DNA of 64,000 nucleotides from an uncultured Chloroflexia bacterium (GCA_963718285.1 CAVQYU010000001.1:75799-139798); one strand, 5' to 3'; numbered from the stretch's first letter, positions 8,326-23,380 are shown. Numbers and translations: made by a program. The notes: generated from the sequence alone by a model not told the origin.

Positions 8326-8991
8326 TTGGCCGTCATGCTCGTTGCCACCGCCGCCACGCGGCGGATCCAGGTCGCTGTTACCACTGCCGATCCGGTCTCC
8401 CGGGCCGGCATCACCAGCCAGCTTCGGGGCAGCCCCCTGGTCGAGGTGGTCGACGAGTCACGCCTGGACCTGGAGGGTCGCCTCGACGCGGTCGCCCTGG
8501 TCGTCTCCGAGGGCTGGGACGAGGACGCCGCCCGAACGATCCGGGGCCTCCGCCAGCGGGGCATGGACCGGGTCGTGCTGCTGGTCAGCCGGCTCGACGA
8601 CAAGGGCCTGTTGGCCGCGGTCGAAGCGGGTGCCTGCGGGATCCTGCGCCGCCAGCAGGCCACGGCCGCCAACGTCATCGCCGCCATCCGCTCGGCCGCG
8701 GCTGGGGAAGGCACCCTCCCGCCGGACATGCTCGGCCGCCTTCTCGACCAGGTCGGCCGCCTCCAACGCCAGATCCTCAAGCCCCGCGGGCTGACGATCG
8801 GCGGCTTGACCGAACGCGAGATCGAGGTCCTCAAGCTGCTCGCCGACGGCCTGGACACGACCGAGGTGGGCGAGCGCCTGTTCCTGTCCGAGCGCACGGT
8901 CAAGACGATCGTCCACGACGTGACCAGCCGGCTCGAGCTGCGCAACCGGACCCACGCCGTGGCCCACGCCATCCGGCTGGGCCTGATCTAG
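8326..8991 (+). CDS. LuxR/NarL-family transcriptional regulator with degenerate (pseudo-)receiver domain
   Basis: C-terminal HTH LTEREIEVLKLLADGLDTTEVGERLFLSERTVKTIVHDVTSRL. The N-terminal receiver-like fold lacks the usual acidic pocket and phospho-Asp (AVALVVSEGWD). TTG start is 8 nt after GGAGGA. Confidence 0.8.
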   Translation: MAVMLVATAATRRIQVAVTTADPVSRAGITSQLRGSPLVEVVDESRLDLEGRLDAVALVVSEGWDEDAARTIRGLRQRGMDRVVLLVSRLDDKGLLAAVEAGACGILRRQQATAANVIAAIRSAAAGEGTLPPDMLGRLLDQVGRLQRQILKPRGLTIGGLTEREIEVLKLLADGLDTTEVGERLFLSERTVKTIVHDVTSRLELRNRTHAVAHAIRLGLI

Positions 8992-9731
8992 GACCCGCTC
9001 GAGAGCTCGTCCTCCTCGAGCTCGTCGTCGGCCTCGCGCTGGACGAACGAGCCCTGGACCGACTCCTCTTCCTCGTCGTCGGCCTCGCGCTGGACCGACG
9101 AGCCCGCGGCCACCGGCGCGCTGGACGGCAGCGCCCCACCGGAGATGACCTGCTCGGCGCGCTGCTCGGCCGCCCGCTCGAACCGATCGGCCGGGTCGCT
9201 CAGCCTGATCCCGCCGCCGGCCGGGCTGCCGTCGACCGGACCGGCCTCCTGCTGGACGACGTGGGTCAGCTCGTGGGCGATCGTGCGCTGGCCGGACGCC
9301 GTCCCCGGATCGAACCGACCGCCGGCGAAGACGATGTCGTGGCCGACGGTGTAGGCATGGGCGTTGACCGACAGGGCCGAAGCGGCGGCCTGGCCATCAG
9401 TATGCACCCGGACCGAGCCGAAATCGGCCGAGAAGCGATCCTCCATCGTGCTCCTGAGGCCCGCTTCCAGCGGCTCCCCGCCACCCCGTCCGACGACATC
9501 CAGGACCGGCGAAGGCTGGTCGGCTTCGCCCTCCTCGCCGAGCAGCTGAGCCACCCCGGCATTGCCGGCGCTGCGCTGGAGGTGGAGGACGGCGGCGCTG
9601 TCGAGATGGCCGCCTCCTCCGGCTGCAAGGGCCCGGCCGACATCTCCGGCGAGCCCGGCCGGCTCGGCCTCCGCCCCGGCCGGCGCCTTCGCTGGAGCGA
9701 CCAGGTCGAGCTCAAAGTCATGCATGGCCAC
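8988..9731 (-). CDS. DUF4157 (eCIS-associated, HExxH metallopeptidase-like) protein with acidic repeat tail
   Basis: FGSVRVHTDGQAAASALSVNAHAYTVGHDIVFAGGRF...IAHELTHVVQQ matches my recollection of the DUF4157 core. Last gene of the CIS minus operon. An alternative ATG lies at 9725. Confidence 0.75.
   Translation of the reverse strand: MAMHDFELDLVAPAKAPAGAEAEPAGLAGDVGRALAAGGGGHLDSAAVLHLQRSAGNAGVAQLLGEEGEADQPSPVLDVVGRGGGEPLEAGLRSTMEDRFSADFGSVRVHTDGQAAASALSVNAHAYTVGHDIVFAGGRFDPGTASGQRTIAHELTHVVQQEAGPVDGSPAGGGIRLSDPADRFERAAEQRAEQVISGGALPSSAPVAAGSSVQREADDEEEESVQGSFVQREADDELEEDELSSGS
9021..9095. repeat. 24-nt direct repeat (two copies, 51-nt period) inside the DUF4157 gene
   Basis: CTCGTCGTCGGCCTCGCGCTGGAC at 9021-9044 and 9072-9095. 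It encodes a duplicated VQREADDE segment (17-aa period). Confidence 0.8.
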
Positions 9732-11841
9732 GCTCCTTCAGGGCCTCGAAATGCGGTCCGAACTCACTTTCAACCACCAGCCGGCCCAGCTTTCGATACT
9801 CCCGTTCCGTCTCGCGCACGAGGTCGACCATCGACACCGGGCGGCCGCCGGCCGCCGCGCGATAGGCGGCGCCCACGGCCACGTTCCGAATGTTGCCACC
9901 GGACAGCTTGAAGGCCCGGGCCAGGAAGCCGATGTCGATGTCGGCGTCGCGGGGCAGGTCGGCCGCCAGGTGGCCCAGCCAGATCCGCCGGCGATCATCG
10001 GGCTCGGGCATCGGAAAGTCGATGATGGCGTCCAGCCGGCGCACGAATGCCTCATCGACGTTGGCCCGCAGGTTCGTGGTGAGGATGGCCATCCCGTCGA
10101 ACTGCTCCATCCGCTGGAGGAGGTAGGCCACTTCGACGTTGGCGTAGCGATCGCGGGCGTCCTTGACTTCGGAACGCTTGCCGAAGATCGAGTCGGCCTC
10201 GTCGAACAGAAGGATGCCATTCACTCGATCGGCCTCCGAGAAGACACGGTCGAGGTTCTTCTCAGTCTCGCCGATGTACTTGTCGACCACCGTCGACAGG
10301 TCGATCACGTACAGGTCGAGCCCGAGCTCGCCCGCGATCACCTCGGCCGACATCGTCTTGCCCGTGCCCGAGTCACCAGCAAACAGGGCGGTGATCCCAC
10401 GGCCGTGCGACGAGCGCCGGCCCATCCCCCACGTCTCGAGGACGAGGTCGCGATCGCGCGCCCGGCCGGCCAGCTCGCGGAGCTGCTCGACGACCGGCTC
10501 GGGCAGGACCAGGTCGGACCAGGCCACGGCCGGCTCGATCCGCCGGGCGAGGCGTTCGAGGCCAGCCGCATTCTGGGCCCGGGCCCCGCCGTAGAGGTCG
10601 GCGGGCTCGAGCGGACGCCCGCCCGCCAGGGCCTGCAGGCCGGCCGATCGGGCCGCCCGGACGACCTGTTCGGGGGCCAGCCGGAACGGCAGCCGCTCGA
10701 TCTCATCGGCCAGCGGCCGATCGACCTCCGGCGGCAGGGCGGCTCGCCAGATCGAACCCCGCTCGCCAGGATCGGCCACGGCGGCCTCGACCAGCAGGGG
10801 CACGGCTCGCGACCAGCCCGGGTCCCAGCCCCGGCTGCCCAGGAGGATCGTCGGGCAGGCCAGCTCGGCGAAGGCGCGCACCGCGGCCGGGCCGCGCTCG
10901 GCCAGGCCGTCGATCGGCCCGGCGACGAGGCCGCCCCCGCGCAGGCGTGCCTCCCGCTCGGCGGCAGCGGCGACCCGCCGCGGGTCGTCGCCCGGGGCAA
11001 GCCGCCGGAGGTCCAGCGGCAGCGGCTCGAGGCCGGCCGCGGCGAAGGCGGTGACTGCCTGGGAGAGGCCCGCCGAGCCGACCCGCTCGCGCAGGTAGAC
11101 CAGGCCGGCCCCTGCTGCGATCGCCCGCTCCAGGGCCGCCACGCTGCCCACGGCCGAGGGCACGGCGTCGGTCAGGAGATCCGCCAGGATGGGGTCGGGC
11201 CGGTCCACCCCGAGGAGGTGAGCCGTGACCCGATCGGGCACCCTCAGCGACCGGCTCAGGAATGGTCGGTCCGGGTCCTCGACCAGGATCAGGCCACCGG
11301 CGACCAGCGGCGCGGCCGGCTCGAAGCGGGCCCGCGCCGGGCCCGACCCGGTCGCCGCGCCGGCCTGGCCAGGGCTGCCCGCGGCCAGCTCCAGGGCGAG
11401 CCCGATGCTCGCCCGGCGGCGCGATACGTCGTCATGGAGGTAGCCATACAGGCGCTCGAAGCGCGGCTCGAGATCCGGGGCAAGAGCGACCAGCAGCAGC
11501 TCAAGGTCCAGGTCGGTTAGCCCGAACGTCTGCACCAGGCGGCGCAGGCGGAGGTCCGCCCCGGCAGCCGCGGCCGCCTCGGCCCGGGAATCGACCGCCG
11601 CCAGGGCCTCTTCAGCCGGCTGATCTCTGGCCGGACCCCGGATCGGGGCACGATCGCCGGCCAGCAGGCTGTCGACCTGGGCCTCCGAGATGTACAGGCC
11701 CCGAAAGCGGTCGGTTGGGTCAGGGTCGTCGGCCCGCCTGCGGGCGACGGCCTGGGCGACCCGCCCGGCCAGGATCGTCAGCCGGTCGTGGAGATCGTCG
11801 TCCGAGGCCGGCTCGGGCCGGGCCACGAGCTGGGCGGTCAC
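9718..11841 (-). CDS. AAA+ ATPase, Afp15/Pvc15-like CIS assembly ATPase
   Basis: C-terminal AAA module GITALFAGDSGTGKTMSAEVIAGELGL...ILLFDEADSIFGKR, with a long N-terminal region. GTGA overlap with the upstream cap gene. Confidence 0.85.
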   Translation of the reverse strand: MTAQLVARPEPASDDDLHDRLTILAGRVAQAVARRRADDPDPTDRFRGLYISEAQVDSLLAGDRAPIRGPARDQPAEEALAAVDSRAEAAAAAGADLRLRRLVQTFGLTDLDLELLLVALAPDLEPRFERLYGYLHDDVSRRRASIGLALELAAGSPGQAGAATGSGPARARFEPAAPLVAGGLILVEDPDRPFLSRSLRVPDRVTAHLLGVDRPDPILADLLTDAVPSAVGSVAALERAIAAGAGLVYLRERVGSAGLSQAVTAFAAAGLEPLPLDLRRLAPGDDPRRVAAAAEREARLRGGGLVAGPIDGLAERGPAAVRAFAELACPTILLGSRGWDPGWSRAVPLLVEAAVADPGERGSIWRAALPPEVDRPLADEIERLPFRLAPEQVVRAARSAGLQALAGGRPLEPADLYGGARAQNAAGLERLARRIEPAVAWSDLVLPEPVVEQLRELAGRARDRDLVLETWGMGRRSSHGRGITALFAGDSGTGKTMSAEVIAGELGLDLYVIDLSTVVDKYIGETEKNLDRVFSEADRVNGILLFDEADSIFGKRSEVKDARDRYANVEVAYLLQRMEQFDGMAILTTNLRANVDEAFVRRLDAIIDFPMPEPDDRRRIWLGHLAADLPRDADIDIGFLARAFKLSGGNIRNVAVGAAYRAAAGGRPVSMVDLVRETEREYRKLGRLVVESEFGPHFEALKERGHA

Positions 11842-12593
11842 CTCTCCAGGCCGCGCACGCGCACGATCCGGCCCGGCTGGCGATCGGTGCCGGTCAGGCG
11901 GGTCTCATCGGGCGCCGGCGCCCCGGGCGGCTCATCGCGCTTGGCGGCCGTGCGGCGAGCGGCCGCGCGGCGGCTTCCCCCAGCGTCTTCGTGGCCGCCC
12001 GGGGTGACGATCGCCAGGCGGGGCTCCTCGAGGACCGGCGGACCGGCGGCCTGACCCAGGTCGAGCACGAACGGGGCGGTCACGATCAGGTCGATCGACG
12101 GCTTCAGCTCCCCGCCCAAAGCCGACCAGATGTCGGCGATCGAGCGGTCGCTGCCGAGCGGCAGGGCGGCGGTCACGAAGAGCGGAATGTGCTGGTCGGC
12201 CAGCCCACCGGCACAGTCGGCCGGCGCGATCCGCTCGTGCCGGATGAAGCAGCCCAGCAGGTCGGACAGCAGGCGATGCTCGTCCTCCGGCCGCTGGGTC
12301 CAGGCGGTGACCATGTAGGCCAGCTTGAATTGGCGCGCCGGCGGCCGCCGTTCGATCACCCGGCCGGCGTTGTCCATGACCGGCTCCCACTGGACATCGC
12401 GCCGGGCCATGTCCTCGCGGATGTCATAGAGGTACAGGTCCACGGTCGGCCCATTGCGGCGGGCGACCCAGTCGCGGGTCGGCGCGTCGAAGGCGACTTC
12501 GATGGCCGCTCCGGCCAGGGCCTCGCTGCGCACGAGGGCAAGCAGGGTCTCGTCGACGTCCTGGATCATCCGGAGCATGGTCCGTCGCGGCAT
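11838..12593 (-). CDS. DUF4255 / Pvc16-Afp16-like tail terminator (cap) protein
   Basis: MIQDVDETLLALV...VAFDAPTRDW...TVDLYLYDIREDMARRD...FKLAYMVTAWT pattern typical of Pvc16_N. Start may be M6 or M9 of the ORF. Confidence 0.8.
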   Translation of the reverse strand: MPRRTMLRMIQDVDETLLALVRSEALAGAAIEVAFDAPTRDWVARRNGPTVDLYLYDIREDMARRDVQWEPVMDNAGRVIERRPPARQFKLAYMVTAWTQRPEDEHRLLSDLLGCFIRHERIAPADCAGGLADQHIPLFVTAALPLGSDRSIADIWSALGGELKPSIDLIVTAPFVLDLGQAAGPPVLEEPRLAIVTPGGHEDAGGSRRAAARRTAAKRDEPPGAPAPDETRLTGTDRQPGRIVRVRGLER

Positions 12594-12805
12594 GGCCTCG
12601 GCGCGAGCGCCAGCGGGGCAGCCGTTGGGGCAGACCGGGCCGTCCGGGCGGCCTCTTCGACGGGCGCTGGGTCGCCTCTTTGGGCGGCTCGGACCGCCCC
12701 TACTGCCGCACCTCGGGGCCTTGCAGGACGACGCTCGCGGCCGGACCCTCGAACGAGTCGTATGACCATCGCAGCTCGATCAGCGCAGCCTTGGAGGGCG
12801 TCTGA
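12594..12805. promoter_or_regulatory. divergent intergenic region between the two CIS operons
   Basis: 212-bp non-coding gap between oppositely oriented first genes. GGAGGG lies 7 nt before the sheath ATG. No promoter motifs could be assigned confidently. Confidence 0.4.
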
Positions 12806-14323
12806 ATGCCTAGCTACCTGTCGCCCGGCGTGTACGTCGAGGAGGTCGAAGCCGGATCTCGCCCGATCGAAGGCGTGGGCACGGCCGTGGCCGCGTTCGT
12901 TGGCCTGGCGGCCTCGGGGCCGGCCAACACCCCAACCCTGGTCACGAACTGGAGCCAGTTCGTCCAGCAGTTCGGCGATTTCATCGAAGGCTCGTACCTG
13001 GCCCACGCGGTCTACGGCTACTTCCTGAACGGCGGCGGAGCTGCCTACATCGTCCGGATCGGGGCCGACGGCAATCAGCCGGCCGCCCATCTCGACCTGC
13101 CGGCCGCCGATGAGAAGGGGGTCACGGCGCTGCGCCTGACAGCCCTCGACAGCGGTCCCCTGGGCAACGACATCAGCGTCGAGGTCGGCGAGCCGTCCCA
13201 GCCTGCCGAAGGGGTCTTCAAGCTCGTCGTCAGCCGGCCCGGCTCCGAGACCGAGACCTTCGACAACGTCAGCCTGAAGCGGGGCAAGCAGTACGTCGCG
13301 ACGGCGGTCAAGGCCGTCTCCAAGCTGATCCGGGTCGAGGAGGCCTCGTCGAGTGCCCTCACTCCCGTCAGCGGCAAGACCTCCCTGGCCGGCGGGGGGG
13401 CGTCCCGGGCGGTCCAGGTCGCGCCCGACGACTACGCCGGCAACGCCTCCGACCGAACCGGCTTCGCCGGGCTCGAGGCGATCGACGAGGTCACGATGCT
13501 GGCCGCGCCCGACGTCATGGCGCTCTACCAGCAGGGCGTGATCGACCTCGAGGGCCTCCAGGCGATCCAGCTGGCGATGCTCGCCCATTGCGAGCTGATG
13601 GGCGACCGGATGGCCATCCTCGACGCGCCTCCCGGCTACAACGCCCAGCAGGTCAAGGAATGGCGGATGGAGAAGGCCGGCTACGACTCGAAGTACGGCT
13701 CGCTCTACTGGCCCTGGATCAAGGTCTTTGATCCGGTTGCCGGCCAGGCCCGGTTCGTTCCACCGAGCGGCCACATCGCCGGCATCTGGGCCCGCAACGA
13801 CGACACCCGGGGCGTCTGGAAGGCGCCCGCCAACGAGGTCATCCGGGGCGCGATCTCGCTCGAGCTGCAGCTGACCAAGTCGGAGCAGGACCAGCTCAAC
13901 CCGGTCGGCATCGACTGCATCCGGGCGTTCCCCGGACGGGGCATCCGGGTCTGGGGCGCGCGGACCCTCTCGAGTGATCCGGCCTGGCGCTATGTCAACG
14001 TTCGGCGCCTCTTCAACTACATCGAGGAGTCGGTCATCGGCGGCACCCAATGGGTCGTCTTCGAACCGAACGACCTGGCCCTCTGGCAGCGGGTCAAGCG
14101 GACCCTCAACGCCTTCCTCGTCCGGACCTGGCGCGACGGGGCCCTGTTCGGCGCAACGCCCCAGGAAGCCTTCTACGTCAAGTGCGACTCCGAGACGAAT
14201 CCGGCCGAGGTCATCGACGCGGGCCAGCTCGTGGTCGAGATCGGCATCGCGCCGGTCAAGCCGGCCGAGTTCGTGATCTTCCGGATCGCCCAGTTCTCGG
14301 GTGGGACGTCCCTGTCGGAGTAG
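12806..14323 (+). CDS. contractile tail sheath protein (Afp2-4-like)
   Basis: Canonical N-terminus MPSYLSPGVYVEEVEAGSRPIEGVGTAVAAFVG and C-terminal sheath block GIDCIRAFPGRGIRVWGARTL. Confidence 0.9.
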   Translation: MPSYLSPGVYVEEVEAGSRPIEGVGTAVAAFVGLAASGPANTPTLVTNWSQFVQQFGDFIEGSYLAHAVYGYFLNGGGAAYIVRIGADGNQPAAHLDLPAADEKGVTALRLTALDSGPLGNDISVEVGEPSQPAEGVFKLVVSRPGSETETFDNVSLKRGKQYVATAVKAVSKLIRVEEASSSALTPVSGKTSLAGGGASRAVQVAPDDYAGNASDRTGFAGLEAIDEVTMLAAPDVMALYQQGVIDLEGLQAIQLAMLAHCELMGDRMAILDAPPGYNAQQVKEWRMEKAGYDSKYGSLYWPWIKVFDPVAGQARFVPPSGHIAGIWARNDDTRGVWKAPANEVIRGAISLELQLTKSEQDQLNPVGIDCIRAFPGRGIRVWGARTLSSDPAWRYVNVRRLFNYIEESVIGGTQWVVFEPNDLALWQRVKRTLNAFLVRTWRDGALFGATPQEAFYVKCDSETNPAEVIDAGQLVVEIGIAPVKPAEFVIFRIAQFSGGTSLSE

Positions 14324-14361
14324 CAGCTCGCTGAACGGTCAGCACGAAAGGAGACAGCACG

Positions 14362-15405: not shown

Positions 15406-15408
15406 CCC

Positions 15409-17175: not shown

Positions 17176-17591
17176 GCGAGCGCGCCCTGGGCCTCCACTT
17201 CACGGTCACGATCGATGGCCTGTCGCTGGGCGACTGGACCAAGTGCGACGGACTGAGCATCGAGTACGACGTCAAGGAATACCAGGAGGGCGGCGAGAAC
17301 AGCTTCACCCACCGCCTCGCCGGCCGGGCCAAGTACAGCAACATCCGGCTGACCCGCCCGATCGATTCCTCGTCGGCCGAGATCGCAATGTGGGTGGCCA
17401 GCGTGGCCGCCAAGCTCGTCCGCCAGACGGCCCAGATCGCGGTCATGGACGCCTCGGGCAGCACGATCGTGGCCTGGAACCTGATCGGTGTCTACCCGGC
17501 GAAGTGGACCGGGCCGACCCTCGACGTGGCCGGCAACCAGGTCGCGTACGAGACCCTCGAGCTGGCCCATCACGGCCTGACCGGCGGCTGA
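17172..17591 (+). CDS. second tail tube-family protein (Afp5-like)
   Basis: LHFTVTIDGLSLGDWTKCDGLSIEYDVKEYQEGG...IRLTRP parallels the first tube protein. Confidence 0.85.
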   Translation: MSERALGLHFTVTIDGLSLGDWTKCDGLSIEYDVKEYQEGGENSFTHRLAGRAKYSNIRLTRPIDSSSAEIAMWVASVAAKLVRQTAQIAVMDASGSTIVAWNLIGVYPAKWTGPTLDVAGNQVAYETLELAHHGLTGG

Positions 17592-17593
17592 CG

Positions 17594-18304
17594 ATGAGCA
17601 TTCTCGGCCTGAACCTGGAGAAGGCCTCCCTGCGGGCGGTCAGCGGCGATCCCAAGACGCGCCAGCTCAAGTTCAGCTACAACCCGAGCGAGCTGTCGAC
17701 CTCGAAGTCGGCCAACTGGCATCGGCCCACGACCAACTCGGCCAAGACCGCGACCCAGCCCCAGTTCGCCGGAGTCCAGGCCCAGTCGGTCCAGATGGAG
17801 ATCTTCTTCGACGAGTACGAGGATCTCCTGGGCGATGTCTCGGACGACGTGAAGACGCTGTTCGAGTGGACCAAGCCGACCCCGTCGTCGCTCCGCAAGA
17901 ACCTGCCCAACCCGCCGATCCTGGCCTTCGAGTGGGGCAGCAACAAGGTCCTCGCCGGGTTCCAGGGCTACCTCAGCAAGGTCTCGGCCAAATACACCAT
18001 GTTCCGGGCCGACGGCACGCCGATCCGGGCGACCGCCTCGATCAGCCTCGAGGAGGTCCCCAACGACCCGTCCGGCCAGAACCCCACCTCGGGCAGCCTG
18101 AACAGTCGCCGCAGCCATGTCCTGGGCGATGGGGACAGCCTCCAGTCCGTCGCCTGGCACGAGTACGGCAACGCGGCCCTCTGGCGCAGCCTGGCCCTGT
18201 TCAACGGCATCGACGATCCGATGCGCCTGACCACGGGCAGCTCGATCCTCATCCCCAGCTCGAGCGAGGCCCTCCGCCTGGCCGAGGGCGGCGGCGATGG
18301 CTGA
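17594..18304 (+). CDS. CIS tube-fold + LysM protein (Afp7-like tube initiator / baseplate hub component)
   Basis: N-terminal LKFSYNPSELSTSKSANW...MEIFFDE tube-like block. C-terminal LysM LQSVAWHEYGNAALWRSLALFNGIDDPMRLTTGSSILIP. Confidence 0.8.
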   Translation: MSILGLNLEKASLRAVSGDPKTRQLKFSYNPSELSTSKSANWHRPTTNSAKTATQPQFAGVQAQSVQMEIFFDEYEDLLGDVSDDVKTLFEWTKPTPSSLRKNLPNPPILAFEWGSNKVLAGFQGYLSKVSAKYTMFRADGTPIRATASISLEEVPNDPSGQNPTSGSLNSRRSHVLGDGDSLQSVAWHEYGNAALWRSLALFNGIDDPMRLTTGSSILIPSSSEALRLAEGGGDG

Positions 18305-20016
18305 CGGCGGCCAGGCCCTGCGGGCGGAGATCGAGGTCGAGGGCAGCCCGCTCGATCCCGAGATCGAGCCGCTCGTCGAGCAGGTCATCGTCGACAACGA
18401 TGTGCACCTGCCCGGCACGTTCCTGATCGTGTTCAACGACCACGATCGGGACGTCCTCAATCGAGTCGGGCATCAACGTCGGCTCGGCCATCCGGATCAG
18501 GGGCAGCGCCCTGGGCAGCCAGCAAAGCGGCCTGCTCATTGCGGGCGAGGTCACCTCGCTCGGCGCCGAGTACCGCTCGGGCGAGAGCCGGGTGCTGGTC
18601 CGGGGCTACGACGCCCTCCACCGGCTCCAGCACGGCCGCCAGACCCAGACCTACCTCAACGCCAAGGACTCGGACATCGCCCAGGCCGTCGCGGGCCGGG
18701 CCGGGCTGGAGGTGGGTCCGATCACGGAGACGACCGAGGTCCACCCGTGGGTCCCCCAGGCCAACCAATCGGACTGGGAGTTCCTGACCGACCGCGCCCG
18801 CCAGATCGGCTTCGAGCTGTCGGTCGACGACGGTGCCCTCCAGTTCCGCAAGCCGACTCCCGCCTCGGACGCACCGGAGGACGGCGACTACGACTCGAGC
18901 AACCCGCTCCAGCTTGTCTTCGGCCAGAATCTGCTCCAGTTCCGGCCTCGGATCACGGCGGCCGAGCAGGTCGGCAGCGTGGAGGTCCACGGCTGGGATC
19001 CAGTCCAGGCGGCCGCCCTGAACAAGCCCGCCGATCCGGCCACGACCAGCGTGACCCTGGGCTCGCTCAAGCCGGACGAGATCGCCGCCGGCTTCAACCC
19101 GCCGGCCTACGTCCTGATCGGTGGCCAGGTCGCGACCGAAGCGGGCCTGGATGCCGCCTCGGCGGCCGTCAGCGAGCAGCTCGCCAGTGCCTTCGTCGAG
19201 GCCGAGGGCACCGCCCGGGGCCACCCCGGGCTGAAGGCCGGCGTCGCCGTCAGCGTCTCGGCCGTGGCCGACCAGTTCGCCGGCAAGTACAGCCTGAGCC
19301 AGACCCGCCATGTCTTCGATGAAGACGGCTATCGGACCGAGTTCCGGATCAGCGGTGGCGCCGATCGTAGCCTGCTCGGGCTGGCCCTGGCCGGCCCGTC
19401 CGCGTCGGGCGCGATCGGCGGGTCGGCCCGCTCGAGCTCGGTCGGCGGGCTGGTCATCGCCCTCGTCACCGAGAACGACGATCCCGAAGGGCTTGGCCGG
19501 GTCAAGCTCAAGTTTCCCTGGCTGGCCGACACATTCGAATCGGATTGGGCGCCGGTGACCCAGTTCGGGGCCGGGCCGGACAGCGGCAGCTTCTTCGTGC
19601 CCAACGTCGGCGATGAGGTCCTGGTCGGCTTCGGCTTCGGGGACATTCGCCAGCCGTTCGTGATCGGCGGCCTCCACAACGGCCAGACCAAGCACATGGC
19701 CGGCGAGATCGAGTCGGTGAACGGAGCGCAGAAGCGGCGCGGGATCGTCTCGCGCAACAAGCATCACCTGACCTTCTTCGACGGGGCTGACGAGTCCGGC
19801 ATCTCCCTGATCACCGGCCAGAACCACCTCCGAATCTCGCTCGACGACACCCAGTCCTGGATTGAGCTCAACTCGCCGGGCAAGGTCACGATCTCGGCCG
19901 ACGGCGACATGCAGCTGACCGCCAAGGGCTCGCTCGAGCTGAGCGGCTCGGCCGGGCTGAAGCTCAAGAGCGACGCCGTGGTCGAAGTCTCCGGCCAGAC
20001 GATCAAGCTGAACTAG
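18297..20016 (+). pseudogene. gpD/VgrG-like spike-hub protein (Afp8-like), split by a single 1-nt frame change at the GGG run 18468-18470
   Basis: Frame 0 reads MADGGQALRAEIEVEGSPLDPE...DRDVLNRVG. Frame +1 continues seamlessly INVGSAIRIRGSALGSQQSGLLIAGEVTSLGAEYRSGESRVLVRGYDALHRL into ORF 18592..20016 (gpD-like, later VGDEVLVGFGFGDIRQPFVIGGLHNG). Confidence 0.8.
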
Positions 20017-20024
20017 GAGAGGCG

Positions 20025-20411
20025 ATGGGCACCCCTGCGATCGTGGCCGGCGACAAGATCACCGGAGCCTGTCCCAACCACCTGATCCCTGGCCCGCTCG
20101 GGGCGCCGATCCCGTCGCCGGTCCCCCTGCCCTTCTCCGCCCCGCTTTCGCAAGGGCTCTCGACCAACGTCCTGATCGGAGGCAAGGCGGCCGCGGTCGT
20201 GGGCTCGTCCGGCCTCAACTCGCCGGCCCATGCCGGCCTTCACGCCAGCGATCCGTTCCTCCTGCCGGCGACCGAGATCGGCCAGGTCACGAGTGGCAGT
20301 GCCACCGTCCTGATCGGTGGCCAGCCGGCCGCGACGGCGGCCTCGCAGGCCACCTGCTGCACGGTCCCGGGCAAGCTCCCGCCGTCCGTGTCCAATGTGT
20401 TGATCGGCTAG
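20025..20411 (+). CDS. PAAR-like spike tip protein (Afp10-like)
   Basis: 128 aa and Gly/Pro-rich, with VLIGGKAAAVVGS and VLIGGQPAATAAS repeats characteristic of PAAR folds. Immediately follows the spike gene. Confidence 0.75.
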   Translation: MGTPAIVAGDKITGACPNHLIPGPLGAPIPSPVPLPFSAPLSQGLSTNVLIGGKAAAVVGSSGLNSPAHAGLHASDPFLLPATEIGQVTSGSATVLIGGQPAATAASQATCCTVPGKLPPSVSNVLIG

Positions 20412-20419
20412 GTGGGGCA

Positions 20420-20818
20420 GTGAGCACGGAATTCATCGGCGCCGGCTGGGCCTTTCCCCTGCGGACCGACGCGACCGGCGGAATCGCCCTGGTCAGCCAC
20501 GATCGCGAGATCGAGGAGAGCATCCGGTTGATCCTGGGCACGGCCTTCGGCGAACGGCCGATGCGGCCCGACTTCGGCTGTGCCATCCACGACTACATCT
20601 TCGCCCCGACCGATGCGACAACGGCCGGCCGGATCTCCTACGAGGTCCGCGCATCGCTCCAGCGCTGGGAGCCCCGGATCGAGGTGGCCGAGGTCGTGGT
20701 CGAGATCTCGGCCGACGACCCGGCCCTGCTCTACATCGACGTGCGCTACACGATCACCAGCTCGAATGACCCACGCAACCTGGTCTTCCCCTTCTACGTC
20801 ATCCCGCCGGAGAGCTGA
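20420..20818 (+). CDS. GPW/gp25 baseplate wedge protein (Afp9-like)
   Basis: IEESIRLILGTAFGERPMRPDFGCAIHDYIFAP is the classic gp25 motif. Confidence 0.9.
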   Translation: MSTEFIGAGWAFPLRTDATGGIALVSHDREIEESIRLILGTAFGERPMRPDFGCAIHDYIFAPTDATTAGRISYEVRASLQRWEPRIEVAEVVVEISADDPALLYIDVRYTITSSNDPRNLVFPFYVIPPES

Positions 20819-20819
20819 C

Positions 20820-22766
20820 ATGGCCCTGCCCGTCCCCAACCTCGACGATCGGCGCTTCCAGGACCTCGTCGACGACGCCAAGCGCCTGGTCCAGCAGCGC
20901 TGCCCCGAATGGACCGACCACAACGTGTCCGATCCGGGGGTCACCCTGATCGAGCTGTTCGCCTGGATGTCGGACCAGCTGCTGTACCGGATGAATCGGG
21001 TCCCCGAGCGCCACTACGTCAAGTTCCTGGAGCTCCTCGGGGTCCGCCTGTTCCCGCCGATCGCGGCCCGGGCAGCCGTCACGTTCTGGCTGACTGCCCC
21101 CCAGCCGGACGCCGTCAGGATCGCCGCCGCCACCCGGGTCGCGACGGTCCGGACCGAGGCCGATGAGGCGATCGTGTTCGCCACCGTGGCCGACCTGGCG
21201 ATCGTACCCTGTGCCCTGGCCCGGCCCGGCTCGATCGTCGACGGCAAGCAGTTCCGGGACAGCTCCGCCGCCCTGGACAAGGGCACCGGCTTCCTGTGCT
21301 TCGACACGCCACCCAAGCCAGGCGACGCGCTCATGGTCGGGCTGACCGACGCCGTGCCATCCTGCGCGGTCACCCTCAGGATCAAGGCCACGATCGAGGG
21401 CGTGGGCGTCGACCCGGACCGGCCACCGCTCGTCTGGGAGGCCTGGGACGGCGCCGACTGGGCCGCCTGCGAGGTCGATCGGGACGGCACCGGCGGGCTC
21501 AACCGCGACGGCGACATCGTGCTGCATGTGCCGGCCGGCCATGTCGCCTCGGTCATCGACAAGCAGCGCGCGGGCTGGCTGCGCGCCCGGATCGTGGAGC
21601 CGGAGCCGGACCAGCCGGCCTACAGCGCTTCGCCCAGCATCCGGGCCCTGAGCGCATTCACGATCGGGGGCACGACCAGCGCGATCAACGCCGAGGTCGT
21701 CCACGACGAGCTGCTGGGCATCTCCGGTGGGGTGCCCGGCCAGCGCTTCACGGTCAAGCGCCGGCCGGTCGTGCCGGGGGGCGGACCGGCCGTCCTCCAG
21801 GTCAGCGCTGAAGATGGCTGGGTCGACTGGCAGCAGGTCACGACCTTTGCGGACAGCGGCCCGGCCGATCACCACTTCGTGCTCGACGCGGCGGCTGGCG
21901 AAGTCCTGCTCGGCCCGGGCGTCCGGCTCGAGGACGGTTCCTTCCGGCAGTACGGGTCGGTTCCGGCCAAGGGTGCCAGGCTGGCCCTCCAGACCTACTA
22001 CACGGGCGGCGGCCGGCGGGGCAACGTGGCGGCCCACGCCCTGAGCACGCTCAAATCCTCGATCCCGTTCGTCGGGCGGGTCGAGAACCGGCGACCGGCG
22101 GCCGAGGGCGTGGACGGCGAGGACATCGAGAACGCCAAGGTGCGCGGCCCGATCGTCCTGCGCACCCGGGGCCGGGCCGTGACCACCGAGGACTACGAGC
22201 AGCTCGCCCTGGAAGCCGCCCCCGAGGTGGCCCGGGTGCGGGCCGTGCCGGCCGGCGACGGCGTCGATGCCGGTTCGGTCCGGGTCCTGGTCGTGCCGGC
22301 TGCGGCGAGCCGGGCCGGCCGGCTCCAGTTCGAGCAGCTCGTGCCGCCCGATGACACGCTGGAGCGGATCTCGCGTCGCCTCGACGAGTGCCGGGTCATC
22401 GGGGTGCGGGTCCTGACCGAGCCGCCGGCCTATCGCGGGATCACCGTCGTAGCCCGCCTGCGGGCCCGCTCGCGAACGAACCCGGGGCGCCTCCAGGAGG
22501 CGGCCCTGGAGGCCCTCTACGCCTACTTCCATCCGATCAGCGGCGGCCCCGAGGGCAGCGGCTGGCCGTTCGGACGACCGGTCCAGGTCGGCGAGGTGTA
22601 CGCCGTGCTGCAGGGCGTCGGCGGCCTGGAGCTCGTCGAGGACGTCCGCCTCTTCGGGGCCGATCCGATCACCGGCCAGCGTGGCCAGTCGGTGCCTCGG
22701 CTCGACCTCGACCCCAACGCCCTCGTGTTCTCCTACGAGCACCAGGTCCTGGTCGAGGGCATCTGA
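20820..22766 (+). CDS. baseplate J / gp6-like protein (Afp11-like)
   Basis: MALPVPNLDDRRFQDLVDDAKRLVQQRCPEWTDHNVSDPGVTLIELFAWMSDQLLYRMNRVPE is typical of putative baseplate assembly proteins. The ATG is adjacent to the gp25 stop. Confidence 0.85.
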   Translation: MALPVPNLDDRRFQDLVDDAKRLVQQRCPEWTDHNVSDPGVTLIELFAWMSDQLLYRMNRVPERHYVKFLELLGVRLFPPIAARAAVTFWLTAPQPDAVRIAAATRVATVRTEADEAIVFATVADLAIVPCALARPGSIVDGKQFRDSSAALDKGTGFLCFDTPPKPGDALMVGLTDAVPSCAVTLRIKATIEGVGVDPDRPPLVWEAWDGADWAACEVDRDGTGGLNRDGDIVLHVPAGHVASVIDKQRAGWLRARIVEPEPDQPAYSASPSIRALSAFTIGGTTSAINAEVVHDELLGISGGVPGQRFTVKRRPVVPGGGPAVLQVSAEDGWVDWQQVTTFADSGPADHHFVLDAAAGEVLLGPGVRLEDGSFRQYGSVPAKGARLALQTYYTGGGRRGNVAAHALSTLKSSIPFVGRVENRRPAAEGVDGEDIENAKVRGPIVLRTRGRAVTTEDYEQLALEAAPEVARVRAVPAGDGVDAGSVRVLVVPAAASRAGRLQFEQLVPPDDTLERISRRLDECRVIGVRVLTEPPAYRGITVVARLRARSRTNPGRLQEAALEALYAYFHPISGGPEGSGWPFGRPVQVGEVYAVLQGVGGLELVEDVRLFGADPITGQRGQSVPRLDLDPNALVFSYEHQVLVEGI

Positions 22767-22768
22767 CG

Positions 22769-23380
22769 ATGCGCGGGCTGGTGGCCGGGCTGCTCAACCC
22801 GCACCCGCTGGGCGAGAGCCTGCCCGCCCTCTACCACGAGGATTCGTTCACCCAGCGCCTGACCGGGGCGCTGGACGAGGTGATGGCCCCGGTCTACGCC
22901 AGCCTCGATGGATTGGGCGCCTACCTCGACCCGGCCCTGGCCCCGGACGACTTCCTCGACTGGCTGGCGAGCTGGGTCGGCGTGGCCCTCGACGAAACCT
23001 GGCCGATCGAGCGGCGGCGCCAGCTGGTGGCCGACGCGGCCGGGCTGTACCGGTCGCGCGGGACGGTCGCCGGCCTGGCCGCCCAGGTAACCGTGTATAC
23101 CGGTGGCGAGGTGACCGTCGAGGACAACGGCGGGGCGGCCTGGAGCAAGCAGGCCGGCGGCGCGATTCCGGGCAAGGCCGCGCCCCTTCTGCGGGTTCGG
23201 GTCAGCGTGGACCAGCCCGACTCAATCAGCCTGGCCCGGCTCGAGGCGGTCGTGGCCACGGCCAAGCCCGCTCACGTCCCCCACACGATCGAGGTCGTGG
23301 GCCGATCGGGCCGGGCCGGCCGCGCGGCCCGGAACGCCGAGCCGGCCGCGTCGGATGCCGACGAGGCGCCCGGGGGCTGA
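22769..23380 (+). CDS. phage tail protein I / gp7-like baseplate protein (Afp12-like)
   Basis: LPALYHEDSFTQRLTGALDEVMAPV...FLDWLASWVGVALDETWPIERRRQLVADAAGLYRSRGT is a P2 gpI-type tail protein domain. Confidence 0.8.
   Translation: MRGLVAGLLNPHPLGESLPALYHEDSFTQRLTGALDEVMAPVYASLDGLGAYLDPALAPDDFLDWLASWVGVALDETWPIERRRQLVADAAGLYRSRGTVAGLAAQVTVYTGGEVTVEDNGGAAWSKQAGGAIPGKAAPLLRVRVSVDQPDSISLARLEAVVATAKPAHVPHTIEVVGRSGRAGRAARNAEPAASDADEAPGG

What the first reader, a model, noticed from the sequence alone, without database searches (positions are those of the whole stretch)
8988..23380. Complete Afp/PVC-like contractile injection system in two divergent operons
Seen: 15 adjacent ORFs have tight or overlapping junctions (GTGA at 11838-11841, ATGA at 17172-17175, gaps of 1-9 nt elsewhere). 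They diverge from a 212-bp intergenic region (12594-12805). The minus arm holds a DUF4255/Pvc16-like cap, a 707-aa AAA+ ATPase and a DUF4157 HExxH protein. The plus arm holds the sheath, gp19-type tube, chaperone-like pair, P/A-rich tape-measure candidate, second tube paralogue, tube-fold+LysM protein, gpD/VgrG-like spike, PAAR, GPW/gp25, gp6/J-like and gp7/I-like proteins. Established: this gene set, in the order sheath-tube-chaperone-tape measure-...-gpD, is that of P2-type tails and of Afp (Serratia), PVC (Photorhabdus) and actinobacterial CIS. The cap, the Afp15-type ATPase and the tape measure, together with the lack of TssJLM/ClpV-type genes, separate it from T6SS. No capsid, portal, terminase, integrase or lysis genes flank it, which argues against a prophage. 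Inference: this is a particle-forming injection system in what looks like a high-GC actinobacterial-type genome. Its subclass cannot be assigned by eye.
Basis: partly seen in the sequence, partly recalled or inferred. Interest (0 to 1): 0.75.

Follow-up and report, generated by a model that had tools for sequence, protein, structure and literature searches.

The report
Streptomyces-type contractile injection system in Chloroflexota
The window holds a complete phage-tail-like injection machine of the tail-fibre-less kind known from Streptomyces, where it fires inside the producing cell, but here it sits in an uncultured Chloroflexota (Limnocylindria) genome with a variant membrane trigger protein; it is a solid new member of a known kind.

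Summary
Fifteen genes in two divergent arms (8988-23380) encode every core part of a contractile injection system (CIS), each with a significant Pfam hit.

Corrections:
- The spike gene reads across two frames (one extra base near 18464). The 341-aa ORF 18297-19322 is wrong past that point.
- The second "chaperone" gene is a 51-aa DUF6760 ORF (15250-15405).
- The host is Chloroflexota, class Limnocylindria, not an actinobacterium.

The subclass can be assigned. Sheath, baseplate, cap and tube initiator are far closer to the solved Streptomyces coelicolor cytoplasmic CIS (dbeCIS IId) than to Afp/PVC. Gene order matches, and there is no tail fibre.

The locus is larger than flagged. LuxR and SARP regulators flank it. 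An operon at 26730-31117 encodes a CisA-family membrane protein whose outer domain is a PD40 propeller instead of the CisA C-terminal domain, a second PD40 protein, and an Ig-like membrane protein that recurs beside IId loci in several phyla.

The spike frameshift is probably an assembly error, because GlyRS, a CNNM transporter and IspE in this window are also frame-broken.

Verdict: new member of a known kind, moderate interest.

The parts
8326..8991 (+). LuxR/GerE-family regulator, convergent with the DUF4157 gene (stop codons overlap)
   Evidence: Pfam GerE 7e-15. Homologues at 43-85% identity lie in the upstream flank of most related loci checked. GerE regulators are reported next to eCIS loci (PMC8213781).
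8988..9731 (-). Small DUF4157/eCIS_core protein with HExxH: N-terminal region of about 86 aa, DUF4157 at residues 87-164, acidic tail, 3 [LIVM]QR motifs
   Evidence: Pfam PF13699 2.7e-31. Sequence. Motif count. The layout is like the small DUF4157 adaptor Sle2 of S. lividans (PMC13277306).
9718..11841 (-). AAA+ ATPase (Afp15/Cis15 type), 707 aa
   Evidence: Pfam WHD variant 2.9e-29 plus AAA 2.8e-24. Walker A and B motifs visible. 46-77% identical in related loci.
11838..12593 (-). Cap / tail terminator (Cis16, Pvc16_N)
   Evidence: Pfam Pvc16_N 1.2e-37. PDB: Cis16 (9gts) 2.6e-55, against Pvc16 4e-6 and Afp16 5e-5.
12594..12805 (.). Divergent regulatory region, conserved in length and sequence in the closest relatives
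   Evidence: Alignment with L001, L002, L003 and L162 (211-213 bp each). GGGCRGMC direct repeats at 12616, 12628 and 12646. The last ~75 bp, including the GGAGGG ribosome-binding site, are nearly invariant. No sigma-70 consensus found.
12806..14323 (+). Sheath (Cis2), single copy
   Evidence: Pfam sheath_1 and sheath_1C. PDB: CIS-Sc sheath 8bky/8bl4 at 1e-202 over the full length. Afp2/3 and Pvc2 reach only about 1e-48 to 1e-51, over the C-terminal part.
14362..14817 (+). Inner tube (Cis1a)
   Evidence: Pfam Phage_T4_gp19 4.3e-32.
14819..15253 (+). Conserved 144-aa protein at the tail-assembly-chaperone position (probable sco4251 equivalent, by gene order)
   Evidence: No Pfam or NCBIfam family. 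PHROG phrog_508 'tail assembly chaperone' 4e-4. 62-85% identical across phyla. All 8000 scored candidates were significant, and named ones are 'hypothetical'. AlphaFold pLDDT 68.6 with no significant fold match; best is YqbN at TM 0.42-0.49.
15250..15405 (+). DUF6760 protein, 51 aa; its GTG start overlaps the stop of the preceding gene (GTGA)
   Evidence: Pfam DUF6760 5.4e-12. Frame analysis. The same junction occurs in 134 of 135 distinct loci.
15409..17175 (+). P/A/G-rich 588-aa protein at the tape-measure position: 9 [LIVM]QR motifs and a conserved C-terminal helix (...LARRLYGRIRSRLAAELLADRERAGMITDLR)
   Evidence: No Pfam, NCBIfam or PHROG hit. Composition and motifs. Motif enrichment in homologous positions. 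C-terminal motif conserved in 98 loci, ending just before tube2.
17172..17591 (+). Second tube paralogue (Cis1b, tube initiator layer)
   Evidence: Pfam Phage_T4_gp19 3.5e-35. Role taken from the CIS-Sc structure (PMC12237407).
17594..18304 (+). Tube initiator with LysM-like C-terminus (Cis7)
   Evidence: Pfam CIS_tube 1.8e-24. PDB: Cis7 (9gtp_P, 'LysM domain-containing protein') 1.1e-46 over residues 22-225.
18297..20016 (+). Spike (VgrG/gpD-like, Cis8), read in two frames with one extra base at about 18464-18465
   Evidence: Frame plot, sequence and translations, intact homologues. The reconstructed 572-aa protein hits Phage_base_V 2.6e-24 and Phage_GPD 1e-6. The window's own gene call is a 474-aa truncation (P0001).
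20025..20411 (+). PAAR tip protein (Cis10)
   Evidence: Pfam PAAR_motif 1.1e-8. Present in Limnocylindria, Dormibacterota and Acidimicrobiia loci and absent from most Streptomyces loci.
20420..20818 (+). gp25-like baseplate wedge protein (Cis9)
   Evidence: Pfam GPW_gp25 2.3e-26.
20820..22766 (+). Baseplate J-like protein (Cis11)
   Evidence: Pfam Baseplate_J 1.9e-13. PDB: Cis11 (9gtp_1K) 2e-234 over residues 1-647 of 648.
22769..23380 (+). P2 gpI-like baseplate protein (Cis12), 203 aa
   Evidence: Pfam Tail_P2_I 1.1e-15. TIGR02242 1.5e-29. Streptomyces counterparts are 183-194 aa.
23385..26621 (-). Large ATPase plus SARP (Trans_reg_C/BTAD) regulator, convergent with the baseplate genes
   Evidence: Pfam results. 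A homologue lies downstream of gene I on the opposite strand in L001, L003, L161, L162 and more than 30 other loci. BTAD regulators are reported next to eCIS loci (PMC8213781).
26730..28496 (+). CisA-family bitopic membrane protein variant: Zn-ribbon 1, about 190 aa of disorder, Zn-ribbon 2, TM helix, PD40/TolB-like propeller
   Evidence: ORF and ribosome-binding site. Pfam gives two Zn_Ribbon_1 stretches and four PD40 stretches. The N-terminus matches the start of the gene right after cis12 in 104 hits across 123 loci. An HMM built without the window scores E 3.9e-24, with the next ORF at 0.5. Zn-ribbon and CisA CTD share one ORF in 48 of 52 loci. No CisA CTD in the window.
28504..29586 (+). 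Second bitopic PD40 propeller protein (short N-terminus, TM helix, propeller)
   Evidence: Pfam PD40 1.1e-27. TM helix. 8-nt gaps to both neighbouring genes.
29594..31117 (+). Bitopic protein with a cytoplasmic tandem Ig-like N-domain (about 215 aa), TM helix and variable ectodomain ('Ig-TM')
   Evidence: N-domain homologues in 27 of 80 sheath-anchored loci across several phyla. Same topology in homologues. Reverse neighbourhood test. AlphaFold pLDDT 89.4, generic tandem Ig/ASH/PapD-like fold.

Best explanation
This is a chromosomal contractile injection system of dbeCIS subtype IId, the lineage of the Streptomyces coelicolor cytoplasmic CIS (CIS-Sc). The host is an uncultured Chloroflexota bacterium of class Limnocylindria.

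Shown here:
- All structural modules are present: baseplate (Cis9/11/12), spike (Cis8 with a PAAR tip), two tube-initiator layers (Cis1b, Cis7), tube (Cis1a), one sheath (Cis2), cap (Cis16) and an AAA+ ATPase.
- They are co-linear with related IId loci, including Streptomyces ones, and their best solved relatives are CIS-Sc proteins.
- There is no tail-fibre gene.
- A CisA-family membrane protein is encoded nearby.

Inferred from the Streptomyces and Roseiflexus work:
- Particles assemble on the baseplate in the cytoplasm. The chaperone-like protein, DUF6760 and the P/A-rich protein at the tape-measure position probably help.
- The ATPase aids assembly or cargo loading.
- The particles stay inside the cell. 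On envelope stress, the bitopic CisA-like protein recruits them to the cytoplasmic membrane through its cytoplasmic Zn-ribbon/disordered region, possibly via Cis11.
- The sheath then contracts and the cell dies or lyses.

In this genome the CisA periplasmic domain is replaced by a TolB-like PD40 propeller. That gene is co-transcribed with a second PD40 protein and an Ig-like bitopic protein, so the signal sensed outside the membrane probably differs from that in Streptomyces. LuxR and SARP regulators flanking the cluster probably control expression. The small DUF4157 protein is the only cargo or adaptor candidate.
For: - Complete part list by Pfam.
- Best solved relatives are CIS-Sc proteins by very large margins: sheath 1e-202 against about 1e-48 to 1e-51 for Afp2/3 and Pvc2; Cis11 2e-234; Cis16 2.6e-55 against 4e-6 for Pvc16; Cis7 1.1e-46.
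- Gene order is identical across about 160 related loci, including Streptomyces.
- No gene lies between cis12 and the convergent regulator, and no fibre-like family was found.
- CisA-family N-terminus: positional match in 104 hits across 123 loci; one ORF with the CisA CTD in 48 of 52 loci; HMM E 3.9e-24 and specific to this ORF.
- The nearest relatives L161 and L162 share the whole arrangement.
- Chromosomal context with no phage genes.
- Host assignment.
- Literature: IId systems are cytoplasmic in Streptomyces (PMC10066040), require CisA (PMC12237407), and are intracellular in Roseiflexus and other Chloroflexota and Deinococcota (PMC12998442).
Against: - The mode of action is extrapolated. 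Nothing here shows where the particles sit or what they hit.
- The CisA CTD, the best-conserved part of Streptomyces CisA, is absent. The N-terminal match rests on a short Zn-ribbon of about 30 aa, which is a common motif.
- The CisA-like gene is separated from cis12 by a 3.2-kb regulator gene.
- No effector was identified.
- A PAAR tip is present but is absent from most Streptomyces loci.
- The second-closest solved sheath (9ezm) belongs to a membrane-anchored, T6SS-like archaeal system.
- The spike gene is frame-broken in this sequence.
- No formal phylogeny against dbeCIS reference sets was made.
Confidence: 0.72

Rival explanations
1. It is a classical extracellular CIS of the Afp/PVC kind. 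Particles are released by lysis of the producer, bind another cell and inject a toxin.
For: It shares the core part list, including the Afp15-type ATPase, Afp16-type cap and DUF4157 protein. A PAAR tip is present. DUF4157 is linked to eCIS toxins (PMC8213781).
Against: - No Afp13-like fibre or receptor-binding gene.
- One sheath gene rather than the Afp2-4 set.
- No recognisable toxin or lysis cassette in the scanned genes of the 64-kb window.
- Afp/PVC proteins are distant matches compared with CIS-Sc.
- Extended IId particles are unstable on lysis in Roseiflexus (PMC12998442).
Confidence: 0.12
2. It is a membrane-anchored, T6SS-like weapon, as in haloarchaea or the thylakoid-anchored cyanobacterial CIS. 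The three bitopic membrane proteins (26730-31117) anchor the baseplate so that it fires outward into neighbouring cells.
For: The second-best solved sheath is the Halogeometricum 'archaeal T6SS' (9ezm, 1e-113). Membrane proteins with conserved cytoplasmic domains are linked to the locus in several phyla. A PAAR tip is present.
Against: There is no homologue of the 6-TM anchor that marks the archaeal T6SS group (PMC11566945). No toxin-immunity pair was seen. CisA in Streptomyces acts transiently, not as a permanent anchor (PMC12237407). Related Chloroflexota and Deinococcota particles are unattached in the cytoplasm.
Confidence: 0.1
3. The cluster is inactive because the spike gene carries a real frameshift, leaving a decaying remnant.
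For: There is one extra base at about 18464 relative to intact homologues. The window's own gene call is truncated to 474 aa. No same-species sequence was available to compare; the next best is 62-64% identical.
Against: - The 56 codons upstream of the shift still have high GC3 and conserved residues.
- All other 14 genes are intact.
- Essential or conserved genes in the same window are frame-broken in the same way: GlyRS in at least three frames, CNNM-CBS-CorC and IspE. That points to assembly indel errors.
- Related metagenome contigs show the same fragmentation.
Confidence: 0.1
4. It is a defective prophage tail or an R-type tailocin.
For: The sheath-tube-chaperone-(tape measure)-gpD-gp25-J-I order is that of P2-type tails. 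There is a weak PHROG hit to a tail assembly chaperone.
Against: No capsid, portal, terminase, integrase, holin or endolysin gene and no fibre gene. The Pvc16 cap, AAA+ ATPase and DUF4157 are eCIS markers. The cluster has the same genomic organisation in many phyla.
Confidence: 0.02

Closest known systems
CIS-Sc, the cytoplasmic contractile injection system of Streptomyces coelicolor/venezuelae (dbeCIS subtype IId; PMC10066040, PMC10020575, PMC12237407)
   Same: Same gene order in the structural arm. Best solved match for sheath, Cis11, Cis16 and Cis7. Two tube paralogues, one sheath, a small Cis12, no tail fibre, a LuxR regulator beside the cluster, and a CisA-family N-terminus.
   Different: - The host phylum is Chloroflexota, class Limnocylindria.
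- The cap-ATPase-DUF4157 genes form a divergent arm, whereas in the Streptomyces loci examined the cap and ATPase genes are co-directional with the sheath.
- A PAAR gene is present.
- The CisA CTD is replaced by a PD40 propeller, and the gene is displaced by a SARP regulator.
- There is an extra PD40 protein and an Ig-TM protein.
- Sheath identity to Streptomyces is only 57-60%.
Chloroflexota/Deinococcota intracellular IId CIS (Roseiflexus, Thermogemmatispora, Deinococcus; PMC12998442)
   Same: Same phylum and same IId subtype, with particles seen unattached in the cytoplasm. Horizontal transfer with Streptomyces has been proposed.
   Different: That clade was reported to lack close cisA homologues. 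The window does carry a CisA-family N-terminal module. The relationship of the Limnocylindria sheath to that clade was not tested here because no Roseiflexus sequence was on hand.
Afp (Serratia entomophila) and PVC (Photorhabdus) extracellular CIS
   Same: Shared core families: sheath, gp19 tube, LysM initiator, VgrG, PAAR, gp25, gp6/J, gp7/I, AAA+ ATPase and the Pvc16/Afp16 cap.
   Different: Afp/PVC have three sheath paralogues, an Afp13 fibre, an Afp14 tape measure and toxin genes at the 3' end. None of these is found here. The matches are distant: sheath about 1e-48 to 1e-51 over the C-terminal part only, and cap 4e-6 to 5e-5.
S. lividans SLP cargo pair Sle1/Sle2 (PMC13277306)
   Same: A small DUF4157 protein is encoded divergently from the sheath operon. 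Sle2 binds the spike complex.
   Different: There is no Sle1-like coiled-coil partner next to the window's DUF4157 gene. The slot between DUF4157 and LuxR is empty here and variable in relatives.
Haloarchaeal T6SS-like CIS (Halogeometricum borinquense; PMC11566945)
   Same: Second-best solved sheath match (9ezm, 1e-113). It also depends on a locus-linked membrane protein.
   Different: That system uses a 6-TM anchor and toxin-immunity pairs. Neither was found here.
P2-type phage tail and phage tail assembly chaperones (G/GT, E/E+E')
   Same: The order is sheath, tube, chaperone-position genes, long gene, gpD. The downstream small ORF is in the -1 frame.
   Different: There is no head or lysis module. 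The -1 frame relation follows from a GTGA start/stop overlap, so frameshifting is not shown.

Membership tests
dbeCIS subtype IId / CIS-Sc-type CIS | Sheath groups with the Streptomyces Cis2 sheath | tested here: met
   Full-length match to 8bky/8bl4 at 1e-202, far above all other solved sheaths. 57-60% identity to Streptomyces loci. No formal tree against dbeCIS references was made.
dbeCIS subtype IId / CIS-Sc-type CIS | Baseplate, cap and tube-initiator proteins of the CIS-Sc type (Cis11, Cis16, Cis7, Cis1a/1b) | tested here: met
   Cis11 2e-234, Cis16 2.6e-55, Cis7 1.1e-46. Two gp19 paralogues.
dbeCIS subtype IId / CIS-Sc-type CIS | Conserved gene order: sheath, tube, unknown, DUF6760, long P/A-rich gene, tube2, LysM, VgrG, (PAAR), gp25, J, I | tested here: met
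   Synteny matrices over about 160 loci.
dbeCIS subtype IId / CIS-Sc-type CIS | No conventional tail fibre (Afp13) | tested here: met
   cis12 ends at 23380 and the convergent regulator stops at 23385. No fibre-like Pfam family in the scanned genes of the window.
dbeCIS subtype IId / CIS-Sc-type CIS | Particles are cytoplasmic and mediate death of the producing cell | not testable with these tools
   Needs cryo-ET or genetics. Inferred from PMC10066040 and PMC12998442.
CisA family (SCO4242) | Bitopic protein linked to the baseplate genes, with a cytoplasmic N-terminal region followed by one TM helix | tested here: met
   N-terminal Zn-ribbon HMM E 3.9e-24. Second Zn-ribbon plus TM match Limnocylindria CisA-like genes. 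TM helix shown. The gene lies 3.3 kb from cis12 rather than adjacent to it.
CisA family (SCO4242) | Conserved C-terminal extracytoplasmic domain of about 150 aa | tested here: not met
   tblastn with two Streptomyces CisA CTDs finds it in 54 loci but not in the window. The window has a PD40 propeller there instead.
Afp/PVC-type extracellular CIS | Tail fibre (Afp13), several sheath paralogues, toxin genes at the 3' end | tested here: not met
   One sheath gene, no fibre, and no toxin domain recognised.
Afp/PVC-type extracellular CIS | Afp14-type tape measure protein | tested here: inconclusive
   A 588-aa gene sits in the right position and has a conserved C-terminal helix. It has no family hit and is 45% Ala+Pro+Gly. 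The CIS-Sc papers say a typical tape measure is absent.
Type VI secretion system | TssJ/L/M membrane complex, ClpV recycling ATPase, TssB/C sheath | tested here: not met
   None of these families was found in the scanned genes of the window. The sheath is of the phage/CIS type.
Prophage or R-type tailocin | Capsid, portal, terminase, integrase or lysis genes next to the tail genes | tested here: not met
   The 9 kb upstream and 40 kb downstream are housekeeping or regulatory genes. No tRNA gene is present.
Phage tail assembly chaperone with programmed -1 frameshift (G/GT type) | Chaperone homology plus a conserved slippery site giving a fusion with the downstream -1 ORF | tested here: inconclusive
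   phrog_508 4e-4 and a weak YqbN fold match. An in-phase G_GGG_GGT lies 24 nt before the stop but is not conserved in L001. A GTG start with a Shine-Dalgarno-like G-run explains the junction more simply.

The most novel reading that the evidence does not exclude
CisA is one member of a wider, modular family of CIS 'trigger' proteins. The family would be defined by a short N-terminal zinc ribbon ([MV]-I-x-C-x2-CG-x2-N-x5-FC-x2-C-x2-FLEW), not by its periplasmic domain. The motif is encoded after cis12 in most IId loci examined, across several phyla.

In Limnocylindria the outer domain has been swapped for a TolB-like PD40 propeller. The protein would work with a second PD40 protein and a bitopic protein with a cytoplasmic Ig-like domain that also recurs beside IId loci. 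If so, the cytoplasmic modules would dock the baseplate while interchangeable outer domains set which envelope signal fires the system.

Two side leads would add to this:
- Repeated [LIVM]QR motifs in the tape-measure-position protein and the DUF4157 protein may be processing or loading signals.
- The chaperone-DUF6760 pair may be fused by a -1 frameshift in some lineages.
Probability: 0.35. Interest if true: 0.6.

Novelty: new member of a known kind. Interest (0 to 1): 0.42.

Why it matters
Cytoplasmic, self-directed injection systems have been studied mainly in Streptomyces and only recently seen in thermophilic Chloroflexota. This locus shows the same machine, nearly gene for gene, in Limnocylindria, a Chloroflexota class known here only from MAGs.

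The CIS proteins are more conserved across phyla than a housekeeping enzyme. The sheath is 70-76% identical to Dormibacterota, against 52% for GlmS. That fits horizontal spread of the system.

The practical gain is a sharper definition of the membrane trigger. The conserved part of CisA appears to be a cytoplasmic zinc ribbon, while the outer domain varies. That suggests direct experiments: N-terminus-Cis11 binding and domain swaps in Streptomyces. It may also help find trigger proteins in lineages reported to lack cisA.

For annotation, the case shows that a frame-broken spike gene in a long-read MAG should not be read as a pseudogene.

Tried and rejected
1. The mechanical ORFs 18297-19322 and 15090-15482 were rejected on GC3 frame evidence.
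2. Programmed frameshifting at the spike was rejected. There is no slippery site at 18455-18470, homologues are intact, and housekeeping genes are broken too.
3. Searching for a same-species copy of the spike failed. The next best hit is 62-64% identical.
4. The fold of the 144-aa protein gave no significant PDB match.
5. NCBIfam gave no names for p3, DUF6760, the P/A-rich protein, the DUF4157 protein or Cis7. The ATPase hits are generic and below cut-off.
6. No sigma-70 promoter or terminator was found in the divergent region. The GGGCRGMC repeat is common genome-wide (100 sites against 57 expected), so only its conservation in relatives is suggestive.
7. The effector hunt found nothing. The slot between DUF4157 and LuxR is empty in the window. 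In relatives it holds unrelated genes: a DUF2207-like membrane protein, HipAB plus HIT, or a long DUF4157 extension.
8. The first extraction of C-termini of the tape-measure-position proteins picked wrong frames. It was replaced by a direct search.
9. My first start for the CisA-like gene (27315) was too short. It was corrected to 26730.
10. Rfam and tRNA scans of the window found nothing.
11. The fold of the Ig-TM N-domain is a generic tandem Ig/ASH/PapD-like sandwich, with no CIS-specific match.

Full report
**Observation**

The window is about 72% G+C, so ORF lists are full of spurious frames. I called genes by third-position GC and a codon log-odds model and fixed the starts by inspection. 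This gives 15 genes between 8988 and 23380: three on the minus strand and twelve on the plus strand, diverging from a 212-bp gap at 12594-12805.

Pfam supports every assignment except two:
- eCIS_core/DUF4157
- WHD + AAA
- Pvc16_N
- sheath (two domains)
- T4 gp19 tube, twice
- DUF6760
- CIS_tube
- Phage_base_V / Phage_GPD
- PAAR
- GPW_gp25
- Baseplate_J
- Tail_P2_I

The two exceptions are a 144-aa gene (14819-15253) and a 588-aa P/A-rich gene (15409-17175). Neither has a Pfam or NCBIfam family.

**Corrections to the gene models**

The spike gene changes frame. GC3 follows the frame of 18297 up to about 18420-18460 and then the frame of 18427-20016, which has no start codon before 18592. Intact 566-579-aa homologues read ...DVLERSGIRIGSKIEIKG.... 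The window reads DVLNR in one frame and SGINVGSAIRIRG in the next. That places one extra base at about 18464-18465. The reconstructed 572-aa protein has the expected domains. The window's own gene call in the protein database is the 474-aa truncation.

The fourth plus-arm gene is a 51-aa DUF6760 ORF at 15250-15405. Its GTG start overlaps the stop of the previous gene.

**Is the spike frameshift real?**

No same-species copy exists in the searched data; the next best hit is 62-64% identical. However, other genes in the window are broken in the same way:
- A glycyl-tRNA synthetase at 36.0-37.5 kb is read in at least three frames.
- A CNNM-CBS-CorC transporter is split between 40047-41360 and 39496-40344. 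The missing CBS and CorC_HlyC domains are in the second piece.
- IspE continues in another frame after its N-domain.

An essential synthetase cannot be a pseudogene, so the assembly probably carries indel errors. The spike frameshift is most likely one of them. Related metagenome contigs show the same fragmentation.

**Host and context**

The sheath's nearest loci are Chloroflexota MAGs labelled Limnocylindria/Limnocylindrales (92-93%). Next come other Limnocylindria (72-76%), Dormibacterota (70-76%), Acidimicrobiia (64-68%), Actinomycetes (60-67%) and Streptomyces (57-60%).

An independent housekeeping marker agrees. GlmS is 79-90% identical to Limnocylindrales MAGs and about 52-54% to Dormibacterota and Actinomycetes (taxonomy).

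The flanks are ordinary chromosomal genes:
- Upstream: a histidine kinase, GGDEF proteins, thymidine kinase, an RDD protein, an alcohol dehydrogenase and an MFS transporter.
- Downstream: PPDK, TsaD/TsaE, alanine racemase, GlmS, GlmM and CdaA.

There is no capsid, portal, terminase, integrase or lysis gene, and no tRNA or Rfam RNA.

**Subclass**

The solved S. coelicolor CIS is the best match for each part tested, by wide margins:
- Sheath: 8bky/8bl4 at 1e-202 over the full length. Afp2/3 and Pvc2 score about 1e-48 to 1e-51 over the C-terminal part only.
- Cis11: 2e-234 over 647 of 648 residues.
- Cis16: 2.6e-55, against 4e-6 for Pvc16.
- Cis7: 1.1e-46.

Gene order in the plus arm is identical across about 160 related loci, including Streptomyces. 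The Streptomyces system is assigned to dbeCIS subtype IId. It lacks an Afp13 fibre and is cytoplasmic (PMC10066040). IId particles are also intracellular in Roseiflexus, other Chloroflexota and Deinococcota (PMC12998442).

In the window, cis12 ends at 23380 and a convergent gene stops at 23385, so there is no room for a fibre gene. The label 'Afp/PVC-like' is therefore too loose. This is a CIS-Sc-type (IId) system.

**The locus is larger than flagged**

Two regulators flank it:
- A LuxR/GerE regulator (8326-8991) abuts the DUF4157 gene and recurs in related loci.
- A 1078-aa ATPase-SARP regulator (23385-26621, minus strand) follows cis12 here, in the closest relatives and in more than 30 other loci.

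GerE and BTAD regulators next to eCIS loci have been noted before (PMC8213781).

Downstream lies a three-gene operon with 8-nt gaps (26730-31117). Its first gene (588 aa) starts with a zinc ribbon (MIVCTNCGHENSDDATFCASCNAFLEW) after a GAGGG ribosome-binding site. It continues with about 190 disordered residues, a second zinc ribbon, one TM helix and a PD40/TolB-like propeller.

**Link to CisA**

In Streptomyces, the gene after cis12 is cisA (SCO4242). CisA is a bitopic protein needed for firing, and its cytoplasmic part is predicted to contact Cis11 (PMC12237407). I recovered that gene from Streptomyces loci. The evidence for the link is:
1. Its C-terminal domain is present after gene I in 54 of 80 loci, including seven Limnocylindria loci. 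It is absent from the window.
2. The window protein's first 30-50 residues match the start of the gene right after gene I. There are 104 hits across the 123 loci that have a gene-I match, and nearly all begin 0-600 nt after gene I.
3. The zinc-ribbon start and the CisA CTD lie in one open ORF in 48 of 52 loci.
4. An HMM of the N-terminus, built without the window, scores this ORF at E 3.9e-24. The next ORF in the window scores 0.5.
5. Residues 176-248 (second ribbon plus TM) also match Limnocylindria CisA-like genes.

Eight loci, including the nearest relatives L161 and L162, have the ribbon but no CisA CTD. L161 and L162 share the PD40 form and the whole arrangement. The CisA paper does not mention a zinc ribbon.

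I conclude that the window encodes a CisA-family protein with a swapped outer domain, displaced from cis12 by the regulator gene.

**The other two genes of the operon**

The second gene (28504-29586) is a shorter TM-PD40 protein.

The third (29594-31117) has a cytoplasmic N-domain of about 215 aa, a TM helix and a variable ectodomain. The evidence that it belongs with the CIS is:
- N-domain homologues (E 1e-31 to 1e-9) lie within 10 kb of the sheath in 27 of 80 loci from Chloroflexota, Dormibacterota, Acidimicrobiia, Thermoleophilia and Actinomycetes. They are often divergent from the LuxR gene.
- In L164 the gene lies about 1 kb downstream of gene I, and in L206 it follows PD40 genes after gene I.
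- Control neighbours (the MFS transporter and PPDK) gave no such hits.
- Starting instead from four N-domain homologues found in the protein database, three lie beside PD40 genes, GerE/BTAD regulators or CIS genes. The fourth is on a short contig with none visible.

The fold is a confident but generic tandem Ig/ASH/PapD-like sandwich.

**Accessory proteins in the structural arm**

The 144-aa protein:
- It is 62-85% identical across phyla.
- It belongs to a very large unnamed family.
- It has a weak PHROG hit to tail assembly chaperones (4e-4).
- Its best, non-significant, fold match is YqbN, which from my own recollection (not checked here) is encoded in a PBSX-like contractile-tail cluster of B. 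subtilis.

The P/A-rich protein:
- It is 45% Ala+Pro+Gly.
- Its C-terminal ~35-residue helix is conserved in 98 loci.
- It carries 9 [LIVM]QR motifs against 0.38 expected. The enrichment recurs in the same-position proteins of most loci.
- The DUF4157 protein has 3 such motifs.

Its tape-measure role rests on position only. The Streptomyces papers regard a typical tape measure as absent.

The small DUF4157 protein resembles the S. lividans adaptor Sle2, which binds the spike complex. It has no Sle1-like partner here, and the adjacent slot is empty in the window. No effector was identified.

**Mechanism**

Shown: a complete, co-linear IId part list, no fibre, a CisA-family membrane protein, flanking regulators and a chromosomal context.

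Inferred from Streptomyces and Roseiflexus: particles assemble and remain in the cytoplasm. Under stress, the CisA-like protein brings the baseplate to the membrane and the system fires, killing or lysing the producer. The PD40 outer domain suggests a different envelope cue.

Rivals:
- An extracellular Afp-like system. Against it: no fibre, no toxin, no lysis genes, and only distant similarity.
- A T6SS-like anchored weapon. For it: the second-closest solved sheath, 9ezm, is the haloarchaeal system. Against it: that system's 6-TM anchor is absent.
- A decaying cluster. This is unlikely given the other frameshifts.
- A prophage tail. No head or lysis genes are present.

**Verdict**

The finding is real and complete. 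It is a new member of a known kind (IId, CIS-Sc-type) in a class with no CIS literature in the searched library. The main added value is the corrected host, the subclass assignment, the artefactual frameshift, and the CisA-family variant with its linked membrane proteins.

Noticed in passing
window 36035-37500 (-), 39496-41360 (-), 43301-44198 (-): Three housekeeping genes appear frame-broken. A glycyl-tRNA synthetase reads in at least three frames. A CNNM-CBS-CorC transporter is split in two frames, with the missing CBS and CorC_HlyC domains in the second piece. IspE continues in another frame. This pattern points to indel errors in the assembly.
   Followed up: partly
window 15409-17175 and 8988-9731; same-position genes in L064, L035, L054, L045 and others: [LIVM]QR motifs are strongly enriched in the P/A-rich tape-measure-position protein (9 against 0.38 expected) and in the DUF4157 protein (3 against 0.13). 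The enrichment recurs in most related loci, up to 15 per protein. They could be cleavage sites for the HExxH domain, or loading signals.
   Followed up: partly
window 15205-15260; 135 related loci: The junction between the chaperone-like gene and DUF6760 (CTGGGGGAATCGTGACGTACG) is almost invariant from Chloroflexota to Streptomyces. DUF6760 is in the -1 frame in 134 of 135 loci. The window has an in-phase G_GGG_GGT 24 nt before the stop. Loci with a CTG start have an in-phase G-run slippery heptamer more often (8 of 13 against 24 of 110). The geometry recalls the phage G/GT frameshift, but translational coupling is the simpler reading.
   Followed up: partly
window 12594-12805; L001, L002, L003, L162: The divergent intergenic region keeps its length (211-213 bp) and much of its sequence in the closest relatives. 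It has three GGGCRGMC direct repeats (12616, 12628, 12646). A 16-bp palindrome, CTGCCCGATCGGGCAG, is present in relatives but degenerate in the window. The 75 bp leading to the sheath start are nearly invariant. These are candidate binding sites for the LuxR or SARP regulators.
   Followed up: partly
window 12806-14323 versus 54351-56180: CIS proteins are more conserved across phyla than a housekeeping enzyme. The sheath is 70-76% identical to Dormibacterota and 57-67% to Actinomycetes, whereas GlmS is about 52-54% to both. This fits horizontal transfer of the cluster between soil phyla.
   Followed up: no
L003 4414-5937, L013 2882-5437, L004 3029-5113 (slot between DUF4157 and LuxR): Relatives carry variable extra genes where the window has none: a DUF2207-like membrane protein, a HipA/HipB pair with a HIT protein, or a 540-aa extension on the DUF4157 protein. 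This may be a variable cargo or insertion slot.
   Followed up: partly
window 48027-50685 (-): Two adjacent well-coding genes (356 and 531 aa) within the tsaE-alr housekeeping stretch have no Pfam or PHROG family.
   Followed up: no
window 432-4938 and 58830-59810: Second-messenger genes surround the locus. Two GGDEF proteins (one with GAF domains) and a histidine kinase fragment lie upstream, and the c-di-AMP cyclase CdaA with its YbbR partner lies downstream. There is no evidence of a link to the CIS.
   Followed up: no
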